A DNA stretch of 15,436 nt, from contig JAQGDQ010002088.1 of assembly GCA_030141605.1 (NCBI GenBank), positions 1-15,436 of the forward strand, in the 5' to 3' direction. Each line of letters begins with the position of its first letter. Position 1 is the stretch's first letter. Below, piece after piece: positions 2,719 to 13,882 of this stretch. The translations under genes were made by a program, and so were the position numbers. The notes beneath the pieces were generated by a model, which was given only the letters and a program-made list of their open reading frames with translations, was not told the DNA's origin and did not search any database. This DNA comes from Tubiluchus corallicola. Taxonomy: Eukaryota > Animalia > Priapulida.

Positions 2719-3074
2719 AGGGGTAGGCATTCACTACCAGAATTCGAATTGGAAACCGAATTTACGACTTTCGTATTCGAACCGAGTTTGAATAATTTTC
2801 GAACCATCAGTAAGAGGCGTTTTTACAAATACCATGCATATCTAAGGCACTTTTGCCTCGATTTTATCCTGCAATAAACCACTAATAATTAGTTTGAAAA
2901 TTGCGCACAAAAATCTCTACTAAATTGCGTCAATTGCTTGATGTTTAAAACTTCTTAATGACAAAAACGTACGAGGTTGAACTGCTGAATTATTCGAATA
3001 TATAATTTTAGGTTCGAATCGAATTCGAATTAAAAAAACTCGTTCGAATCGAATTCGAAAGTTCGATTTTACTA
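2718..3074. mobile_element. hAT-type MITE, family B, copy 1 (TTCGAA-rich)
   Basis: Starts TAGGGGTAGGCATTCACTACCAGAA and is colinear along its length with the copy at 10116-10490. Right TIR eroded (...TTTTACTA) and followed by GTGATAGG. Confidence 0.75.
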
Positions 3075-3094
3075 GTGATAGGCTTATATTGTTT

Positions 3095-3945
3095 TTGTGT
3101 GCACTGTAACTTAATTTGTGTGCCCACTGTAACTCAATTTGTGTGCCCACTGTAACTCACTTTGTGTACCCACTGTAACTCACTTTGTGTGCCCACTGTA
3201 ACTCACTTTGTGCATCCACTGTAACTCACTTTGTGTGCCCACTGTAACTCACTTTGTACCCACTGTAACTCACTTTATACCCACTGTAACTTAATTTGTG
3301 TGCCCACTGTAACTCACTTTGTGTGCCCACTGTAACTCAATTTGTGTGCCCACTGTAACTCACTTTGTGTACCCACTGTAACTCACTTTGTGTGCCCACT
3401 GTAACTCACTTTGTGCATCCACTGTAACTCACTTTGTGTGCCCACTGTAACTCACTTTGTACCCACTGTAACTCACTTTATACCCACTGTAACTCACTTT
3501 GTCTTTGTGTGTCCACTGTAACTCACTTTGTGTACCCACTGTAACTCACTGTGTGCCCACTGTAACTCACTTTGTGCATCCACTGTAACTCACTTTGTGT
3601 GCCCACTGTAACTTACTTTGTGTGCCCACTGTAACTCACTTTGTGTTCCCACTGGAACTCACTTTGTGTGCCCACTGTAACTCAATTTGTGTGCCCACTG
3701 TAACTCACTTTGTGTGCCCACTGCAACTCACTTTGTGTGCCCACTGTAACTCACTTTGTGTGCTCACTGTAACTCACTTTGTGTGCCCACTGCAACTCAC
3801 TTTGTGTGCCCACTGTAACTCACTTTGTGTGCTCACTGTAACTCACTTTGTGTGCCCACTGTAACTCACTTTGTGTGCCCACTGTAACTCACTTTGTACC
3901 CACTGTAACTCACTTTGTGTGCTCACCGTAACTCACTTTGTGTGC
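3095..3945. repeat. 23-bp minisatellite TGTGTGCCCACTGTAACTCACTT, ~37 units
   Basis: Directly visible head-to-tail array with 21-bp variants and a re-duplicated block of variant units; no spacers. Confidence 0.95.
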
Positions 3946-4204
3946 AGATGACACCACCCAGAGAGCATTTAGTCATTTTAAACAGAGTGTCAAAATATGT
4001 TCATTAAAAGACACGAACATTTTCTAATGATTTTTAATGCAGGTCTCAAACATTTAGTTTTTTGCTCAGATTTACACATGTTGCTGGTTTGCACGTATTA
4101 ATTAAAATGAGGATACTGGAAAATTAGCATTAGATTATTTAGCTAGTCGTGTATTTAATTACATAATTAATTACATGTAGCCTGAGTTGGTGAGGGGGTA
4201 AATC

Positions 4205-4673
4205 TATTAGAATTATATAGAACATTGTAGAATGTTCCGTTAGAATAATCGTCTTACCTTGTAGAATGTTCCGTTAGAATAATCGTCTTACCTTGTAGAA
4301 TGTTCCATTAGAATAATCGTCTTACCTTGTAGAATGTTCCATTAGAATAATCGTCTTACCTTGTAGAATGTTCTGTTAGAATAATCGTCTTACCTTGTAG
4401 AATGTTCTGGAACAAAACTTCACGGGCACCCTGTATAAGGCGAAGCAGGCCCATGAGACACACGCAGATTTCGCATGGATGCCACTTACACATTCTCTTG
4501 TATACTTGTATTTTCAGATACACTTAAACGTTTTCCAGATTTTCACGTTTAATGTAATCATTTCGCGTTCCTTCATACTTTTGTGTTGTAGAATTCTCGC
4601 TTAATAAACTAGTTTAATTTGACGAAGTGTTTTCTGGTTTTCTCTACGAGCCTTCCGAGAAAAACAAAACACA
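4205..4673 (+). mobile_element. Probable solo LTR (Gypsy/BEL-like)
   Basis: U3-R-U5-like order: tandem enhancer-type repeats, TATAAG (4434), AATAAA (4603), ends ...AAACACA. Start is either 4205 (TATTAG, perhaps from TGTTAG) or 4226 (TGTAG, which gives imperfect flanks ACAT/GCAT). No clean TSD. Confidence 0.5.
4226..4413. repeat. 34-bp tandem repeat x5.5, each unit containing GAAnnTTC
   Basis: Unit TGTAGAATGTTCCGTTAGAATAATCGTCTTACCT starts at 4226, 4260, 4294, 4328, 4362 and 4396 (partial). Confidence 0.95.
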
Positions 4674-4725
4674 GCATAAAACGAGGTTTGACTGTACTGA
4701 TTTACCCCCTCACGAACTCATGATA

Positions 4726-5047
4726 CAGTCAACCCTTGTAAAATCTGGACTAATTGGGGGGATGGGTGGTCCGGTTTAGCCGATTGTCCGATATGCCTAT
4801 ATATGGTCTATACTATACAGGAATAAACACCTTAATAAGGCCTATATACATTGCGCTATATACTATGCTGTATATTACTTTAAAATAGTTAACCTGTGAT
4901 GATAAAGAAATTATTGTACAGTTGGTAGGCCGTGTTGTGTTTAGCGTTCCGGCTCGGGCGGAAATCGGTCACTTTCCTTTACCACGGATGACGTCCGTCT
5001 TATCCGATATCTGGGCTAACGGGGTCCGGTTTAACGAGGGTCGACTG
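4726..5047. mobile_element. Tc1/mariner (pogo/Tigger-like) MITE
   Basis: TA|CAGTCAACCCTTGTAAAATCTGGAC ... GTCCGGTTTAACGAGGGTCGACTG|TA; ~24-bp imperfect TIRs and a TA TSD. Confidence 0.85.
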
Positions 5048-5291
5048 TACTACACGTAATGAATTATGCAATTAAATACATAATTAGCTAAATAATCTAA
5101 TTCTAATTTTCCATTATCCTCATTTTAATTAATACACGCAACAAGCAGCACATTTATAGTGGACTGACTGTACAATGTTCATAAAGTCAGACATATTGGG
5201 CAGCATGAATGTAAAAAGTATTTATGGTCAAATTTTTCAATTTAAATATCTGCATTGATCATATGGTACTAACTGATTTCCTTTAATGCAG

Positions 5292-6009
5292 ATTGGTTGA
5301 CACGCTGATCATACTAACACTGTCCATCATGGCTGCAGCTTTTCTCCCTGACCACTGGTCACTCACATCTTGGCACTCTCACTACGATGCCGCTCAGTTT
5401 TTTGAGGACCCTCGTCTCCGCTGCGTAGCCGTAATGTTGATGGTCAATGCCGGACGGTCACTCCACCGCACCTTCGCGGCCGCATTTGACCACACCGATA
5501 CGACGGGCTGGTTCATCACCGTGTTAGAGTCGGCAACTGCAACGGTGCTGTCTCCGTTGTTCCTAAACGAGGCGCTCATAATTGGACTAGTGGTACTCAT
5601 CATGCAGGTGACCGTATGTTTCAACAACGTGGCCAACTTCCTGCGCATGCGCAACCGTCAACGAATCGACCATACATTGCCGTACATTGCCACGTGCGCA
5701 ATTGTGACGATTCTCCTACGAGTGGTTTTATTCGTTGCTATGGTAACAACGTTCGTCGGCAAGTATTCTCTCACGTTCTGTCTCTCGCGTGACTTCATTC
5801 TACTGTTGACATGTCTGTGCTACTCGGTAGTCAACACAGGCATAATAGTTACCGTGACAACGGCGGTGATTCGTTACATCAGGAATACGGAAACGAAAGC
5901 CGAGCAGTACAGTTATAAACGATTCGACATTTTATGGGGACATGAGAAGGTAAAAACGAGGTCAATTTATGACAACCTCGCACGAGTTTCTAACTCGCTG
6001 TTGCAATGA
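5292..6009 (+). CDS. Exon 2 (terminal coding exon) of the TLC-domain-like membrane protein
   Basis: Acceptor ttcctttaatgcag| at 5291; 718-nt open frame, GC-richer than its flanks; 197+718=915 nt = 304 aa + stop. Segments LLVDTL, NAGRSLHRTF, TTGWFITVLE, GLVVLIMQVTVCF and VTILLRV are colinear with recalled TLCD1 motifs LLVSFAH, SAGYFIHDTV, RASWEYLVHH, GVLTLLVEVSNIF and MYFLFRL. Confidence 0.8.
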
Positions 6010-6305
6010 TCAGCTTTTTATAATTATATATATATATATATGATCTTTATTTGCCATAAAAAATCGATATTCATAACTATAAAAGCATAAAAGAACATGG
6101 CAGCATGAGAATAAAATTCACACAACTGTTAAAGGCAAATGCGTCCAGTGCAAACTAAAAACTACTGGGCCAAAAATTTAAAACAAAATACACATTATAA
6201 TATTACACGGAAATTATAATAGACTATATACAATATATACATATAATTTAAAACGGACGTGGGTAAATAAAATTTGTGGATGAATATATATTATCGTTTA
6301 CGTAT

Positions 6306-7255
6306 AGTAAAGAGAATCGGGAAAATGTTAAATATCTAATGATTAATGGTTCGATAATTAAAGATGCTATATGATTAATGGTTCGATAATTAAAGATGTT
6401 ATATGATTAATGGTTTGATAAAGATGTTACATATCTAGAAAAGATGCCTAGGAAGCCAGACTGCTGAACACGAGATTAAGGTGCGGCAGTCACGTGATGG
6501 CCTCTCCACTAAGAATCCCAAATACGGAAGTGGCCATACTGAACCGTCAGTCTGGTGCCAGTGCAATGCCCATTTTCCCGTGCATGCGCCGTCAGCCTGA
6601 CGCCAGTGCAATGCCCATTCTGGACCGTCAGGTTGGCGCCAGTGCAATGCCCATTCTGGACCGTCAGTCTGGCGCCAGTGCAATGCCCATTTTCCCGTGC
6701 ATGCGCCGTCAGCCTGACGCCAAAGAGGAAGCCAGGAATTCGAAGAAGTCGGCTAGTAAGACAGATCAGGTTAGGATCTCAGGAAAGAAGGCTTGACAGA
6801 TCAGGGGGCTTGGCATAGCTATGATATGTTTACACTTATATAATATGATATTGTGAAATAAACGTGTTAGTCGTCATCAATCCAGATCTTATAGCTTTGT
6901 CATCACCTCACGCCAATAAACAGCTACTGTGACCTTCATAAGTACTACCACTATACAAACAAGCTTATTAATTTTACTGGAATAACCCAGGTTCGAATCC
7001 TGGTCACGGCACCGAATGGGCATCGCACTGGCGCCAGACTGACGGTTCAGAATGGCCACTTCTATATTTGGGATTCTTAGTGGAGAGGCCGTTACGTGAC
7101 TGCCGCACCTTAATCTCGTGTTCAGCAGTCTGGCTTCCTAGGCGTCCTTCCTAGATATGTAACATCTTTAATTATCAAACCATTAATCATATAACATCTT
7201 TAATTAACAAACAATTAATTATTAGATATTTAACATTTTACCGATTCTCTTTACT
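6306..7255. mobile_element. 950-bp non-coding element with long TIRs, AGT...ACT termini and 5-bp TSD (Polinton/Maverick-like ends; class uncertain)
   Basis: Left TIR 6306-6574, right TIR 7015-7255 (AGTAAAGAGAATCGG... / ...CCGATTCTCTTTACT); TSD CGTAT at 6301-6305 and 7256-7260. Removing the element plus one TSD restores the LINE frame (..ENPTY-VNDNIYSSTNFIYPRPF*). Internal 37-45-bp repeats at 6544-6722. Confidence 0.9.
6983..7013 (+). pseudogene. 3' fragment of tRNA-His(GUG): variable loop, T-arm, acceptor 3' strand, discriminator and CC
   Basis: TAAC-CCAGG-TTCGAAT-CCTGG-TCACGGC-A-CC has a perfect 5-bp T-stem, the B-box GGTTCGAATCC, and the TCACGGCA end recalled for metazoan tRNA-His. The 5' half is absent, so this is not a tRNA gene. 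Confidence 0.8.
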
Positions 7256-8760
7256 CGTATGTTGGGTTTTCAAAACGAATTAATGTATGTGTTTTTAATT
7301 TTGATTTGAACTCGTCGAAAGACTTGATTTGTTTTAAATTTGATGGCAGGGTATTCCAAATTTGAACTCGTTGTTTAGTGATAGAATTGCTGCCGTATTT
7401 GTTATTAGTGCGTATTTGTTTAATATTGTGTGTTCTTGGATTTAATGTTGCCTCCAAGAGGAGTGGAAGTTTATTTTTGACGAAGGGCCTGTTCATATTG
7501 TTGATGTATTTATATAAAAACAGGATTGTGTAGAAGTCTTTACGTGCTTGTAAAATTGGGATTTTAAACATTGTTCTTAATTCTGTTGCAGAGGTTTGAT
7601 TTGTTATGAGGGACGTTTTATTTAATTAGCCAGCGACTAATCTTAATGCAGACTAATTAGTTTGTTATAGCTGTCTCTTGAAACTTCATGAAAAAGTGTG
7701 CATCCGTATAAAAAGTGAAATGAGAGTTTTAAAAATTAATAACTTTGTCTCTTTAGTTAGTTGATCTTTTACCTGCCGTAAGTAGGACGTTCCGCATGCC
7801 ATTTTATCGTAAATTTTATTAAAGTGGTTATCCTAAGAAAGTTTGTTATCTACACAGATACCAAGAAAACTTACATTGTTTTTCTGTTTTATTATGCTAT
7901 TTTCAACTTTTATTGAAGTTTTATTGATGTGTTAGTGTTTTAGATATATTGTTAATATAAAGACAGAAAAGTAAGGGACCCAAAAGTGTGCCTTGTGGTA
8001 TGCCCTGCTGTAATGTTAGCCATTCTGAGAGCGTATTTGTGGATAATTTAACTCTTTGTTTTCTGTTTCTGAAGTAACTGTTAATAAACTTTAATGAAGT
8101 TGCATCAAATCCTAATGATTTTAAATTGTCTTTCAAAAGATTGTGGTCTAGGCTATCAAAGGCTTTACTTAAGTCTAAAAATGCGGCTACAACATATTTA
8201 TTTTCATTTAAGTTTGATCTCCAGTTTTCAGTTGCATATATGATGGCATCAGTAGTTGTTTTCGTCTAAAACCAAATTGATGTTTACTAAGTATATTTTT
8301 TACGTTTATATATGAATTCATTTGTTCATATAGTACTTTTTCCAAAATTTTTCCAAAACAATGAACAACGGATATAGGACGGTAATTAACATGGTCAGTC
8401 GATGAGTCTTTTTTGTGGACTGGTGTTACATTGACTAGCTTACAAATACTGGGGAATTCACTGCGCATGATCATTTGGTTTGCAATGTAGGCAACATGAG
8501 GTGCTATTATAATTTAACGTCACATTATTTTCATGGAAGACGTATCATAATCAAAACTAGTACTACCTGCTAATCACAATTTATTGATACAAATAATTAT
8601 GACATCTGTATTAATTTATGACAAAAACAATGCATATACACTTTTCTTATATATTGGTCATATTTACAAATTTTACAGTAATTTATAGACATCCACAGTA
8701 TTTAACGTAATGGTTACTGCTATCGTAGGCGTGTGAGTTACACTAATACGGTGAGATTAG

Positions 8761-9160
8761 CTCTCTAAAACTGCACAGTGATCAACACTTATCTCTCTAA
8801 AACTGCACAGTGATCAACACTAATCTCTCTAAAACTGCACAGTGATCAACACTTATCTCTCTAAAATTGCACAGTGATCAACACTAATCTCTCTAACACT
8901 GCACAGTGACCAACACTAATCTCTCTAAAACTGCACAGTGATCAACACTAATCTCTCTAAAACTGCACAGTAAACAACATTTTTCTGACAGCACTATGAG
9001 AGATTAGTTTTACAGAGATTAGTGTTGATCACTGTGCAGTTTTAGAGAGATTAGTGTTGATCACTGTGCAGTTTTAGAGAGATTAGTGTTGATCACTGTG
9101 AGGTTAGAGAGATTAGTGTTGATCACTGTGCAGTTTTAGAGAGATTAGCGTTCATCACTG
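8761..9160. repeat. 32-bp minisatellite arranged as two inverted arrays
   Basis: ~6.5 units of CTCTCTAAAACTGCACAGTGATCAACACTAAT (8761-8975), a short spacer, then ~4.5 reverse-complement units (~8997-9160). Confidence 0.92.
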
Positions 9161-9445
9161 TTAACTCTTTACCCTACCAATGGCACAACGCAATTTGCAA
9201 CCTGGGATTAGTGAATTTATGAATGTTACATAGAGTTTAAAAGCTAACATCTCTTATCCGGTTGATCATACCGAAATGTCTAACAATATCTATACACAGC
9301 TATCCAAGGAATCTATGTATTAACTGCAAAAAACGAGCATGATAATATCTGATGCCCAGTGTTGCCAAGTTTATCAGAGTTACCCTGACAGGAATAACAA
9401 AAAAAACATCTTAGGCTGACTTATTTGTTTTAAAGTTCTAGTAAC

Positions 9446-10115: not shown

Positions 10116-10490
10116 TAGAAGTGAGCATTCTCTACCAGAAAGCGAATTCGAATCGAAACGAATTTGTGACTTTCGAATTCGAACCGAATTTGAATTGAGA
10201 TTGAAAGATTTTCGAACAAGTTTTCGAACCACCAGTAAAAACTAGTCTTACAAAGATCATGCCAATCACTAGATTTTGTTCTGCAATAAAACGACTAGTA
10301 ATTTGCTTAAAGTTGTGCACAGAAATCACAGCTAAATTATGTTAATTGCGTGATGTTTCAATCGTTTTAGTGATAAGGAACATGTGTGACTGAAGTGCTG
10401 AATTATTCGAATCTATAGTTTTGGATTCGAATCGAGTTCGAACTAAAAAACTCGTTCGAATCGAATGCGAACGTTCGATGCTCATCCCTA
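10116..10490. mobile_element. hAT-type MITE, family B, copy 2
   Basis: Perfect 8-bp TSD CCGGCTTC (10108-10115, 10491-10498); TIRs TAGAAGTGAGCAT vs reverse complement TAGGGATGAGCAT; homologous to 2718-3074. Confidence 0.9.
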
Positions 10491-12926: not shown

Positions 12927-13882
12927 GATCATGGCAACACTGGCCACCAGATATACTGTGATCATGCTTGTTTCTTGGCAACACTGGCCACCAGATGTAC
13001 TGTGATCATGCCTGTTTCTTGGCAACACTGGCCACTGGATATACTGTGATCATGCCTGTTTCTTGGCAACACAGGCCACCAGATATACTGTGATCATGCC
13101 TGTTTCATGGCAACACTGGCTACCAGATATACTGTGATAATGCTTATTTCATGGCAACACTGGCTATAGATATACTATGATCATGCCTGTTTCTTGGCAA
13201 CACTGGGTACCAGATATACTGCGATCATGCTTGTTTCTTGGCAACACTGGCCATCAGATATACTGTGATCATGCCTGTTTCTTGGCAACACTGGCTACCA
13301 GATATACTGTGATCATGATTGTTTCTTGGCAACACTGGCTACCAGATATACTGTGATCATGCCTGTTTCATGGCAACACTGGCTACCAGATATACTGTGA
13401 TCATGCCTGTTTCATGGCAACACTGGCTACAGATATACTGTGATCATGATTGTTTCTTGGCAACACTGGCTACCAGATATACTGTGATCATGCCTGTTTC
13501 ATGGCAACACTGGCTACCAGATATACTGTGATCATGCCTGTTTCATGGCAACACTGGCTACAGATATACTATGATCATGGCTGTTTCTTGGCAACACTGG
13601 CTACAGATATACTATGATCATGGCTGTTTCTTGGCAACACTGGGTACCAGATATACTGTGATCATGCTTGTTTCTTGGCAACACTGGGTACCAGATATAC
13701 TGCGATCATGCTTGTTTCTTGGCAACACTGGCCATCAGATATACTGTGATCATGCCTGTTTCTTGGCAACACTGGCTACCAGATATACTGTGATCATGCC
13801 TGTTTCATGGCAACACTGGCTACAGATATACTATGATCATGGCTGTTTCTTGGCAACACTGGGTACCAGATATACTGTGATA
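12927..13882. repeat. 44-bp minisatellite, ~22 units, in a PIK3C3 intron
   Basis: Unit ATCATGCCTGTTTC(T/A)TGGCAACACTGGCTACCAGATATACTGTG with 43-bp variants; no unique spacers. Confidence 0.95.

What the first reader, a model, noticed from the sequence alone, without database searches (positions are those of the whole stretch)
6983..7255. 3' end of mature-type tRNA-His fused to the inner edge of a long terminal inverted repeat: possible tRNA-primed, inverted-repeat mobile element
Seen: inside the 950-bp TIR element, TAACCCAGGTTCGAATCCTGGTCACGGCACC (6983-7013) runs directly into GAATGGGCAT..., the start of the right TIR. Established: this matches the recalled 3' end of metazoan tRNA-His. CCA is added post-transcriptionally in eukaryotes, so the trailing CC hints at an RNA origin, although two bases could be chance. 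Read on the minus strand the order is terminal repeat, then GGTGCCGTGACCAGGAT..., which is how an LTR abuts its primer-binding site. Two things differ: the repeats are inverted rather than direct, and the match is 31 nt rather than the ~18 nt set by the m1A58 stop. Read on the plus strand it resembles a frozen strong-stop product (tRNA primer followed by the complement of the element's left end). The left-arm repeat units read ATGCCCATTC-TGG (6611-6623), placing a CCA-complementary TGG at the equivalent junction. Inference: this may be a non-autonomous member of an element class that uses tRNA-His priming to make or repair one TIR and an integrase to insert. Alternatives are a one-off tRNA capture or the leftover of a nested LTR element.
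Basis: partly seen in the sequence, partly recalled or inferred. Interest (0 to 1): 0.8.

Follow-up and report, generated by a model that had tools for sequence, protein, structure and literature searches.

The report
Retrotransposon misfire with two left ends
This 950-base insertion with mirror-image ends consists of one whole long terminal repeat, 33 bases of histidine tRNA and an upside-down piece of the same repeat; it is likely a one-off copying error of an ordinary retrotransposon and likely not a new class of tRNA-primed mobile element.

Summary
The tRNA-His piece is real and slightly longer than reported: 6981-7011 plus CC, tRNA positions 42-75. The 950-bp insertion has a 5-bp target duplication and interrupts a LINE. 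The "TIR element" reading fails. Positions 6306-6978 form one whole LTR, with AGTAAA...TTTACT ends, a TATA box and AATAAA. Position 6978 is a free terminus in 6 other contigs of run X1. In 7 X1 contigs the tRNA end plus CCA abuts that LTR end in ordinary primer-binding-site (PBS) orientation. The right "TIR" (7014-7255) is an inverted copy of the LTR's left (U3) part. The odd joint appears at about single-copy depth in the one contig shown to cover it. Best reading (0.75): a reverse-transcription misfire of a Gypsy-type LTR retrotransposon. Two plus-strand strong-stop DNAs were joined tail to tail, one ending at the LTR plus GG, the other having overrun the tRNA primer 16 nt past A58. That left two U3 ends for integrase. 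Residual interest: the overrun, hints of equally long tRNA matches at other loci, and unreviewed scan notes on similar mirror-ended products in five other genomes. No host genome was available, so copy number is not settled.

The parts
6301..6305 (.). Left copy of the 5-bp target-site duplication (CGTAT)
   Evidence: Sequence; empty-site joint 6300 to 7256 with 5 shared letters in 4 of 4 runs
6306..6978 (+). One complete 673-bp LTR (AGTAAA...TTTACT) of a Gypsy-type retrotransposon; order U3-R-U5 inferred
   Evidence: Terminal 6-bp inverted repeat, TATATAA at 6837, AATAAA at 6857 and 6915; loose ends behind 6978 in 6 X1 and 4 X2 contigs with unrelated continuations; depth peak over 6836-6927
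6328..6421 (+). 32-bp tandem repeat (3 copies) in the U3 part
6531..6722 (+). GC-rich 36/45-bp sub-repeats in the U3 part; their number varies between family copies; two units carry GCCCATTC followed by TGG
   Evidence: joints 6518 to 6803 and 6690 to 7018
6979..6980 (+). GG: with the LTR's last T, the first three bases of a PBS or tRNA copy, at which this strand breaks off (inferred)
   Evidence: Sequence; contig X2 record 9 (6934-7010, 0 differences, depth 4.84) carries the joint
6981..7013 (+). tRNA-His positions 42-75 in sense orientation; on the minus strand an over-long PBS-type copy reaching 16 nt past A58 (6996); the terminal A of CCA is absent
   Evidence: numbering is my own count on the gene bodies printed
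7014..7255 (-). Inverted copy of the first ~242 bp of the LTR (U3 part); supplies a second left end
   Evidence: Alignment; loose ends behind 7255 and 7256 in 4 + 3 X1 contigs show this end at other loci
7256..7260 (.). Right copy of the target-site duplication (CGTAT)
6100..8513 (-). Host target: decayed LINE; the insertion lies about 18 codons before the end of its long reading frame
   Evidence: Pfam RVT_1 E=6e-13 at 7924-8265; frames; flank depth 1e5-5e5 against 5e2-1e4 inside the insertion in X1

Best explanation
The insertion is one whole LTR, two G residues, 33 bases of tRNA-His and an inverted copy of the LTR's left part, and it is likely a faulty reverse-transcription product of a Gypsy-type LTR retrotransposon that was still integrated because it carried a left end at both termini. 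Shown: the anatomy, the target duplication, use of both LTR ends at other loci, and tRNA-His 3' ends abutting the LTR end in PBS orientation elsewhere. Inferred steps: (1) a first, dead-end plus-strand strong-stop DNA copied the tRNA-His primer past A58 to position 42; (2) a second strong-stop DNA, made after primer removal, ended at the LTR plus GG; (3) that strand jumped end-to-end onto the 3' end of the first (or the two were end-joined) and copied it back; (4) 431 bp of the second arm were skipped, either by a second jump into the U3 sub-repeats or by later deletion from an unstable palindrome, losing the A of CCA; (5) integrase inserted the two-U3-ended duplex into a LINE copy; (6) the arms then drifted apart by private mutations.
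For: LTR anatomy: the only internal TTTACT lies at 6973-6978, 2 nt before the tRNA piece (chance about 0.002), with TATA box and AATAAA in LTR order. In X1, depth over 6836-6927 is 8.5 times the median over 6330-6835, as expected if R/U5 is more conserved than U3 (PMC3601003, passages). 6978 is a real terminus: 6 X1 and 4 X2 contigs leave the window there, X1 agreement 0.53 (unrelated sequences give 0.49 +/- 0.02 for n=6). 7 X1 contigs match up to 7013 and continue with letters whose first 8 equal the reverse complement of 6971-6978 (chance 1.6e-4 for the 7 letters after the obligatory A). Their agreement of 0.60 fits about 8 shared letters (simulated 0.61). tRNA-His PBSs are known in Gypsy elements: 23 of 1512 errantiviruses in the PMC13524379 table; the 17 rows labelled His_GUG that were displayed are annelids, molluscs, barnacles and one wasp, with LTR spans of about 245-770 bp. 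AGT...ACT-type ends occur in the Zam clade. Ty3 makes a dead-end strong-stop DNA with a tRNA copy and then one that ends at U5 (PMC5371799 section 2.2). Extension beyond A58 is documented for HIV-1 (PMC13191261, passages). Both arms carry private changes: at 7063, 7093, 7207, 7213 and 7220 all X1 depth shows another letter, and at 6525 and 6538 it shows the right arm's letter. This fits near-identical arms at insertion. The only listed contig over the odd joint has depth 4.84, where other listed X2 pieces have 5-20.
Against: No host genome was held, so no full-length parent, PPT, gag/pol or family target-site length was seen. The 7 PBS-type contigs share only about 8 letters with each other, so several may belong to sister families, and no opposite-strand joint for this exact LTR's PBS was listed. 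No listed contig bridges 7013/7014; 158 pieces and 52 loose ends were not shown. The duplication is 5 bp, whereas Gypsy-mobilised animal Helenus TRIMs make 4 bp (PMC10886601); 4 bp plus one extra base is formally possible. The termini do not match the full Zam motif AGTTAYRK/TAAYT. There is no microhomology at the GG/tRNA joint, and only a weak one at the tRNA/U3 joint (15 of 664 sites as good). The missing A of CCA is not explained without an extra deletion. Contig depth is not a copy number, and contigs drop rare variants.
Confidence: 0.75

Rival explanations
1. Host-level rearrangement: a normally integrated element with a long genomic PBS was rearranged by template switching during replication or repair, rebuilding the right end from the left end through the shared 6-bp TTTACT.
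For: Both LTR ends share TTTACT, so a switch there would keep the target duplication intact. At most 2 of the 4 X1 contigs that begin at 6981 can be tRNA genes (agreement 0.58; simulated 0.81 for three identical, 0.62 for two), so long tRNA matches exist at other loci and could be a long PBS.
Against: It needs three switches plus loss of the whole internal region, and one joint has no microhomology. Similar products are reported in unrelated LTR families in five other genomes (unreviewed AI notes), which fits a reverse-transcription route better.
Confidence: 0.1
2. Born as a misfire but since copied: the mirror-ended form has itself been amplified as a small non-autonomous family.
For: The left end occurs at several loci (4 + 3 X1 contigs). 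Notes on other genomes report recurrent joints (unchecked).
Against: The multi-locus ends are explained by ordinary LTRs. The one listed contig over the GG/tRNA joint has single-copy-like depth (4.84). The form lacks a PPT, and retroviral-type integrases do not excise (recalled).
Confidence: 0.08
3. One reading: a TIR element class in which tRNA-His priming on a TGG in the left arm builds or repairs the right TIR.
For: Inverted arms with AG...CT ends and a clean target duplication. TGG follows GCCCATTC in two sub-repeats, and the tRNA 3' end has some likeness to that site (score reached by 15 of 664 sites).
Against: An internal LTR terminus at 6978 is used as a free end in 6 X1 and 4 X2 contigs. 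The tRNA end joins the U5-type end, not the arm, in 7 contigs. Ginger termini (TGT) and their 4-bp duplications do not fit (PMC2836005). No second copy of the structure was seen.
Confidence: 0.04
4. Standard fold-back product (LTR, forward tRNA copy, inverted U3) followed by a 31-bp micro-inversion between the flanking GG and CC.
For: The 31-nt core is bracketed by GG (6979-6980) and CC (7012-7013). The un-inverted anatomy is the one described in scan note e1-8602347 (unchecked).
Against: Only 2 bp of inverted repeat flank the segment, and the joint region folds no better than shuffles (z = -0.02). It adds an event.
Confidence: 0.03

Closest known systems
Ty3/gypsy LTR retrotransposons, errantivirus-like (Zam-type ends, PMC3601003 passages; 'ancient errantiviruses' with tRNA-His PBS, PMC13524379 passages and supplementary table rows)
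   Same: AGT...ACT-type LTR ends, TATA box and AATAAA order, conserved R/U5, tRNA-His PBS next to the LTR end at other loci, LTR length within the listed range
   Different: Ends do not fit the full Zam motif; 5-bp duplication; no coding region seen, so clade and env status are unknown; here the second repeat is inverted and partial, and the tRNA match is 33 nt against the usual 8-18
Dead-end plus-strand strong-stop DNA of yeast Ty3/Ty1 (PMC5371799, section 2.2 read)
   Same: Provides in one particle both inferred building blocks: a strand carrying a tRNA copy and a strand ending at U5
   Different: Ty3 copies 12 nt of tRNA, and the section read reports no tail-to-tail joining or integration of such products
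Primer over-extension and aberrant end junctions of HIV-1 (PMC13191261, PMC11251516, PMC5618025; passages)
   Same: Read-through of m1A58 and retention of tRNA or PBS sequence at joined DNA ends
   Different: Known stops are at 58, 55, 54 and 37, not 42; the known junctions are U5-U3 circles, not integrated two-U3-end duplexes
Ginger1/Ginger2 and Polinton-type integrase DNA transposons (PMC2836005 passages; Polinton features recalled)
   Same: Inverted ends of about 250 bp and a short target duplication; likely insertion by a Gypsy-like integrase
   Different: Ginger has TGT ends and 4-bp duplications (5 bp in TDD-4/5), and the word tRNA does not occur in that paper; here one 'TIR' is part of an LTR and no family is shown
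TRIMs Helenus and Ajax (PMC10886601, passages and supplement search)
   Same: Short, non-coding, LTR-derived; some use a tRNA-His PBS
   Different: They have two direct LTRs with PBS and PPT; the two His PBS passages shown leave the tRNA sequence after 18 nt

Membership tests
Ty3/gypsy LTR (for 6306-6978) | Short terminal inverted repeat, with both ends used as termini at many loci | tested here: met
   AGTAAA...TTTACT; loose ends at 6978 (6 X1, 4 X2 contigs) and at 7255/7256 (4 + 3 X1 contigs)
Ty3/gypsy LTR (for 6306-6978) | TATA box and AATAAA in U3-R-U5 order, R/U5 more conserved than U3 | tested here: met
   boundaries inferred, no RNA data
Ty3/gypsy LTR (for 6306-6978) | PBS directly after the 5' LTR | tested here: inconclusive
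   7 X1 contigs show tRNA-His end plus CCA abutting the same terminal 8 letters, but they may include sister families and no joint for this exact LTR was listed
Ty3/gypsy LTR (for 6306-6978) | PPT before the 3' LTR; gag-pol with Gypsy domain order | not testable with these tools
   No genome held; loose-end lines are 30 letters and mixed
Errantivirus (Zam/gypsy clades) | Integrase motifs AGTTAYRK / TAAYT | tested here: not met
   Window has AGTAAAGA and TTACT; motif from PMC3601003 Table 3, built on 8 insect LTRs
Errantivirus (Zam/gypsy clades) | env gene and Pol phylogeny | not testable with these tools
   No coding sequence of the family was obtained
TRIM (non-autonomous LTR element) | Two direct LTRs with PBS and PPT between them | tested here: not met
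   Second repeat is inverted and partial
Ginger DNA transposons | TGT termini and 4-bp duplication (CCGG/CCGT for Ginger1) | tested here: not met
   AGT termini, CGTAT duplication
Non-autonomous TIR family (MITE or Polinton derivative) | Multiple dispersed copies with the same two-ended structure | tested here: inconclusive
   One listed contig over the inner joint at single-copy-like depth; internal free terminus at 6978; tables were cut and no assembly was available
DIRS (inverted-repeat YR retrotransposons) | No target-site duplication and no tRNA primer (recalled) | tested here: not met
   5-bp duplication and tRNA piece present

The most novel reading that the evidence does not exclude
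This Gypsy lineage routinely reads through A58 of its tRNA-His primer to a fixed stop near position 42 (or 38, next to m1G37). Long tRNA copies therefore recur at its LTR ends and seed mirror-ended, two-U3-end insertions that look like DNA transposons and may be re-mobilised: a live route from LTR retrotransposons to Ginger-like TIR elements.
Probability: 0.17. Interest if true: 0.62.

Novelty: new variant of a known kind. Interest (0 to 1): 0.33.

Why it matters
If the best reading holds, this is a germline fossil of an intermediate that is otherwise known from yeast and HIV particles: a dead-end plus-strand strong-stop DNA, here with a 16-nt overrun of the tRNA methylation stop. It shows that a Gypsy-type integrase can insert a molecule with two left ends. 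It also warns that some 'TIR elements' in repeat libraries are folded LTRs. It matters more as one of a recurring class than as a single locus. Mirror-ended LTR products would make hairpin RNA and are a plausible first step from LTR retrotransposons to integrase-type DNA transposons. As a single old, non-coding insertion it has no shown function.

Tried and rejected
ARAGORN and Rfam found no tRNA in the window (the Rfam hits are microRNA-like matches far below threshold, on another hairpin). Viral contigs: 0 hits for a PBS-type motif and for the 33-nt piece. Genome contigs: 6 bacterial hits of an 18-nt motif, taken as chance and not examined further. No look-alike of the element among earlier scan windows and no LTR/tRNA note for this genome. 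Sequencing runs: no RNA holder listed. My recollection that Ginger1 elements carry tRNA 3' ends was not borne out (0 occurrences). The ZAM integrase paper gave nothing on extra terminal dinucleotides, so GG as an unprocessed end is not supported by a citation. Cryptic priming at the U3 TGG: weak; the best PBS-like site in the LTR is 6554, not the joint. A stop at m1G37 as the family boundary: the simulations cannot separate it from other mixtures (0.605 vs 0.622 vs 0.543; observed 0.58). No special fold at the joint. Literature searches for integrated fold-back or two-U3-end products and for long PBSs found nothing on point: searches returned 0 papers; two searches returned only unrelated listings (titles and abstract starts seen). 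The library lacks most subscription and older virology papers, and Repbase and Dfam could not be searched.

Full report
Observation. The quoted sequence is at 6983-7013 and abuts GAATGGG at 7014. In the printed flanks the matches lie in tRNA-His genes of other eukaryotes, and ARAGORN called tRNA-His 106 times. In 36 of 127 the identity extends to 6981 and in none further, so the piece is tRNA positions 42-73 plus CC (my numbering; A58 = 6996). 0 of 127 are followed by CC; these are not host genes. The arms are 93% identical, with 17 mismatches and a 28-nt gap.

Insertion limits. Contigs of 4 of 4 runs join 6300 to 7256, skipping 955 letters with 5 fitting both sides (3, 4, 1 and 1 contigs). 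So 6306-7255 is an insertion with a CGTAT duplication. The empty form probably comes from other copies of the target repeat and need not be an empty allele. The target is a decayed LINE on the minus strand (RVT_1, E=6e-13; 2 of 4 frames scanned had a hit, 1 above the Pfam cut-off). It is hit about 18 codons before the end of its long frame.

TTTACT, the complement of the element's first six bases, occurs once internally, at 6973-6978, two bases before the tRNA piece (chance about 0.002). Between 6306 and 6978 lie tandem repeats, then TATATAA (6837) and AATAAA (6857, 6915): the layout of an LTR (PMC3601003, passages). In X1 the depth over 6836-6927 is 8.5 times the median over 6330-6835, as expected if R/U5 is shared by more subfamilies than U3; depth is a rough measure only. 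Laying contigs on 6932-7268 (runs X1, X2, X4; 96, 62 and 19 contigs laid) showed three things. First, 6 X1 and 4 X2 contigs leave the window exactly behind 6978; the X1 agreement of 0.53 is close to the 0.49 of unrelated sequences. Second, 4 + 3 X1 contigs leave behind 7255 and 7256. Third, 7 X1 contigs match up to 7013 and continue with letters whose first 8 equal the reverse complement of 6971-6978. That is the ordinary arrangement of an LTR end followed by a tRNA-His PBS, read on the other strand (chance 1.6e-4). Their agreement of 0.60 fits about 8 shared letters (simulated 0.61), so sister families are probably among them. The right 'TIR' is therefore an inverted copy of the first ~242 bp of the LTR.

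Copy number. One listed contig carries the odd LTR-GG-tRNA joint: X2 record 9, 6934-7010, 0 differences, depth 4.84, where the other listed X2 pieces have 5-20. It shows that the joint exists in DNA, at about one copy. X1-X3 are one sample and may be the window's source. No listed contig bridges 7013/7014, and 158 pieces and 52 loose ends were not displayed. Further copies cannot be excluded.

Age. At 5 of the 17 arm differences all X1 depth on the right arm shows another letter than the window (7063, 7093, 7207, 7213, 7220). At 6525 and 6538 it shows the right arm's letter. Both arms thus carry private changes, which fits near-identical arms at insertion and a few per cent of later drift. Contigs drop rare variants, so this is a hint.

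Mechanism (inferred). In Ty3 the first plus-strand strong-stop DNA copies part of the primer tRNA and is a dead end; the next one stops at the end of U5 after the tRNA is cut at or near the junction (PMC5371799, section 2.2). The window reads as these two products joined tail to tail: LTR plus GG, then the complement of a strand that had overrun the tRNA to position 42. Extension beyond A58 is documented in HIV-1, with minor stops at 55, 54 and 37 and more overrun when m1A58 is lacking (PMC13191261 and PMC11251516, passages). tRNA or PBS remnants occur at HIV-1 circle junctions (PMC5618025, passages). The second arm lacks 431 bp (the rest of U3, R and U5) and the A of CCA. This is either a second jump into the U3 sub-repeats or a later deletion from a long palindrome. 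The likeness of the tRNA end to the sub-repeat TGG site is weak (15 of 664 sites as good), and the site in register in the window's own left arm lacks TGG. The product has two U3 ends, and the clean duplication suggests integrase action. The CC cannot be assigned to the tRNA or to the sub-repeat from this copy alone.

The long tRNA match. Four X1 and two X2 contigs begin at 6981 with unlike upstream sequence (agreement 0.58 and 0.62). Three or four tRNA genes would give 0.81-1.0, so at least two X1 contigs are non-tRNA loci whose tRNA match reaches position 42 or beyond. Chance exact matches of 17 letters to the laid stretch would number about 102 in X1, more than the 96 contigs laid. The tool's threshold is therefore probably above the 17 letters that a plain 18-nt PBS gives, and the 7 PBS-type contigs likely run past A58 as well. 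This depends on an unknown seed rule, so it is only a hint. Whether it is a long genomic PBS, recurrent overrun or truncated tRNA pseudogenes is open.

Comparison with known systems. tRNA-His PBSs are ordinary in invertebrate Gypsy elements: 23 of 1512 errantiviruses; the 17 displayed rows labelled His_GUG are annelids, molluscs, barnacles and one wasp (PMC13524379, supplementary table). That paper gives usual PBS lengths of 8-18 nt (passages). Drosophila errantiviruses use Lys or Ser (PMC3383448, passages). AGT...ACT-type ends recall the Zam clade, but the full motif is not met, and the 5-bp duplication differs from the 4 bp of animal Helenus TRIMs (PMC10886601, passages). The parent is therefore filed only as 'Gypsy-type, clade unknown'. 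Ginger, TRIM and DIRS each fail a defining feature (see membership test; DIRS and Polinton features are recalled).

Novelty. I found no paper on integrated two-U3-end products or on long PBSs (0 papers; listings not on point). The library omits much older virology, and Repbase and Dfam were not searchable. Unreviewed notes of this scan describe similar LTR + tRNA copy + inverted element insertions in five other genomes. I saw them after forming the LTR reading and did not test them; one pointed me to the Ty3 paper. The variant here differs in that the tRNA copy belongs to the inverted, truncated arm.

Verdict. This is most likely a single aged reverse-transcription misfire of a Gypsy-type LTR element (0.75), a new variant of a known kind. 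Interest 0.33.

Noticed in passing
window 6100-6305 and 7256-8513, minus strand: Decayed LINE (RVT_1 hits) whose 3' end has very high depth in X1 (1e5-5e5); it is the target of the insertion
   Followed up: partly
window 8761-9161: Fold-back element made of 32-bp tandem units in two opposed arrays (6.8 and 4.9 copies), a near-perfect hairpin; gives only sub-threshold microRNA-like Rfam scores
   Followed up: no
window 4089-5141: Inverted arms of 92 nt (89%) enclosing a 34-bp tandem array: MITE-like
   Followed up: no
window 2720-3080 and 10120-10480: Two diverged copies of a repeat rich in TTCGAA motifs (families D14, D15, D19)
   Followed up: no
window 5287-6009, plus strand: 240-codon stop-free frame with hydrophobic stretches, no Pfam hit at E<=0.01; possibly an exon of a membrane-protein gene
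   Followed up: partly
window 3094-3945 and 12932-13881: Long minisatellites with 23-bp (37 copies) and 44-bp (22 copies) units
   Followed up: no
runs X1/X2, contigs beginning at window 6981: At least two non-tRNA loci carry tRNA-His sequence reaching position 42 or beyond: possible long PBS or recurrent overrun
   Followed up: partly
L001, L009, L030 and similar loci: Some metagenome tRNA-His genes carry short inserts after the anticodon, probably introns
   Followed up: no
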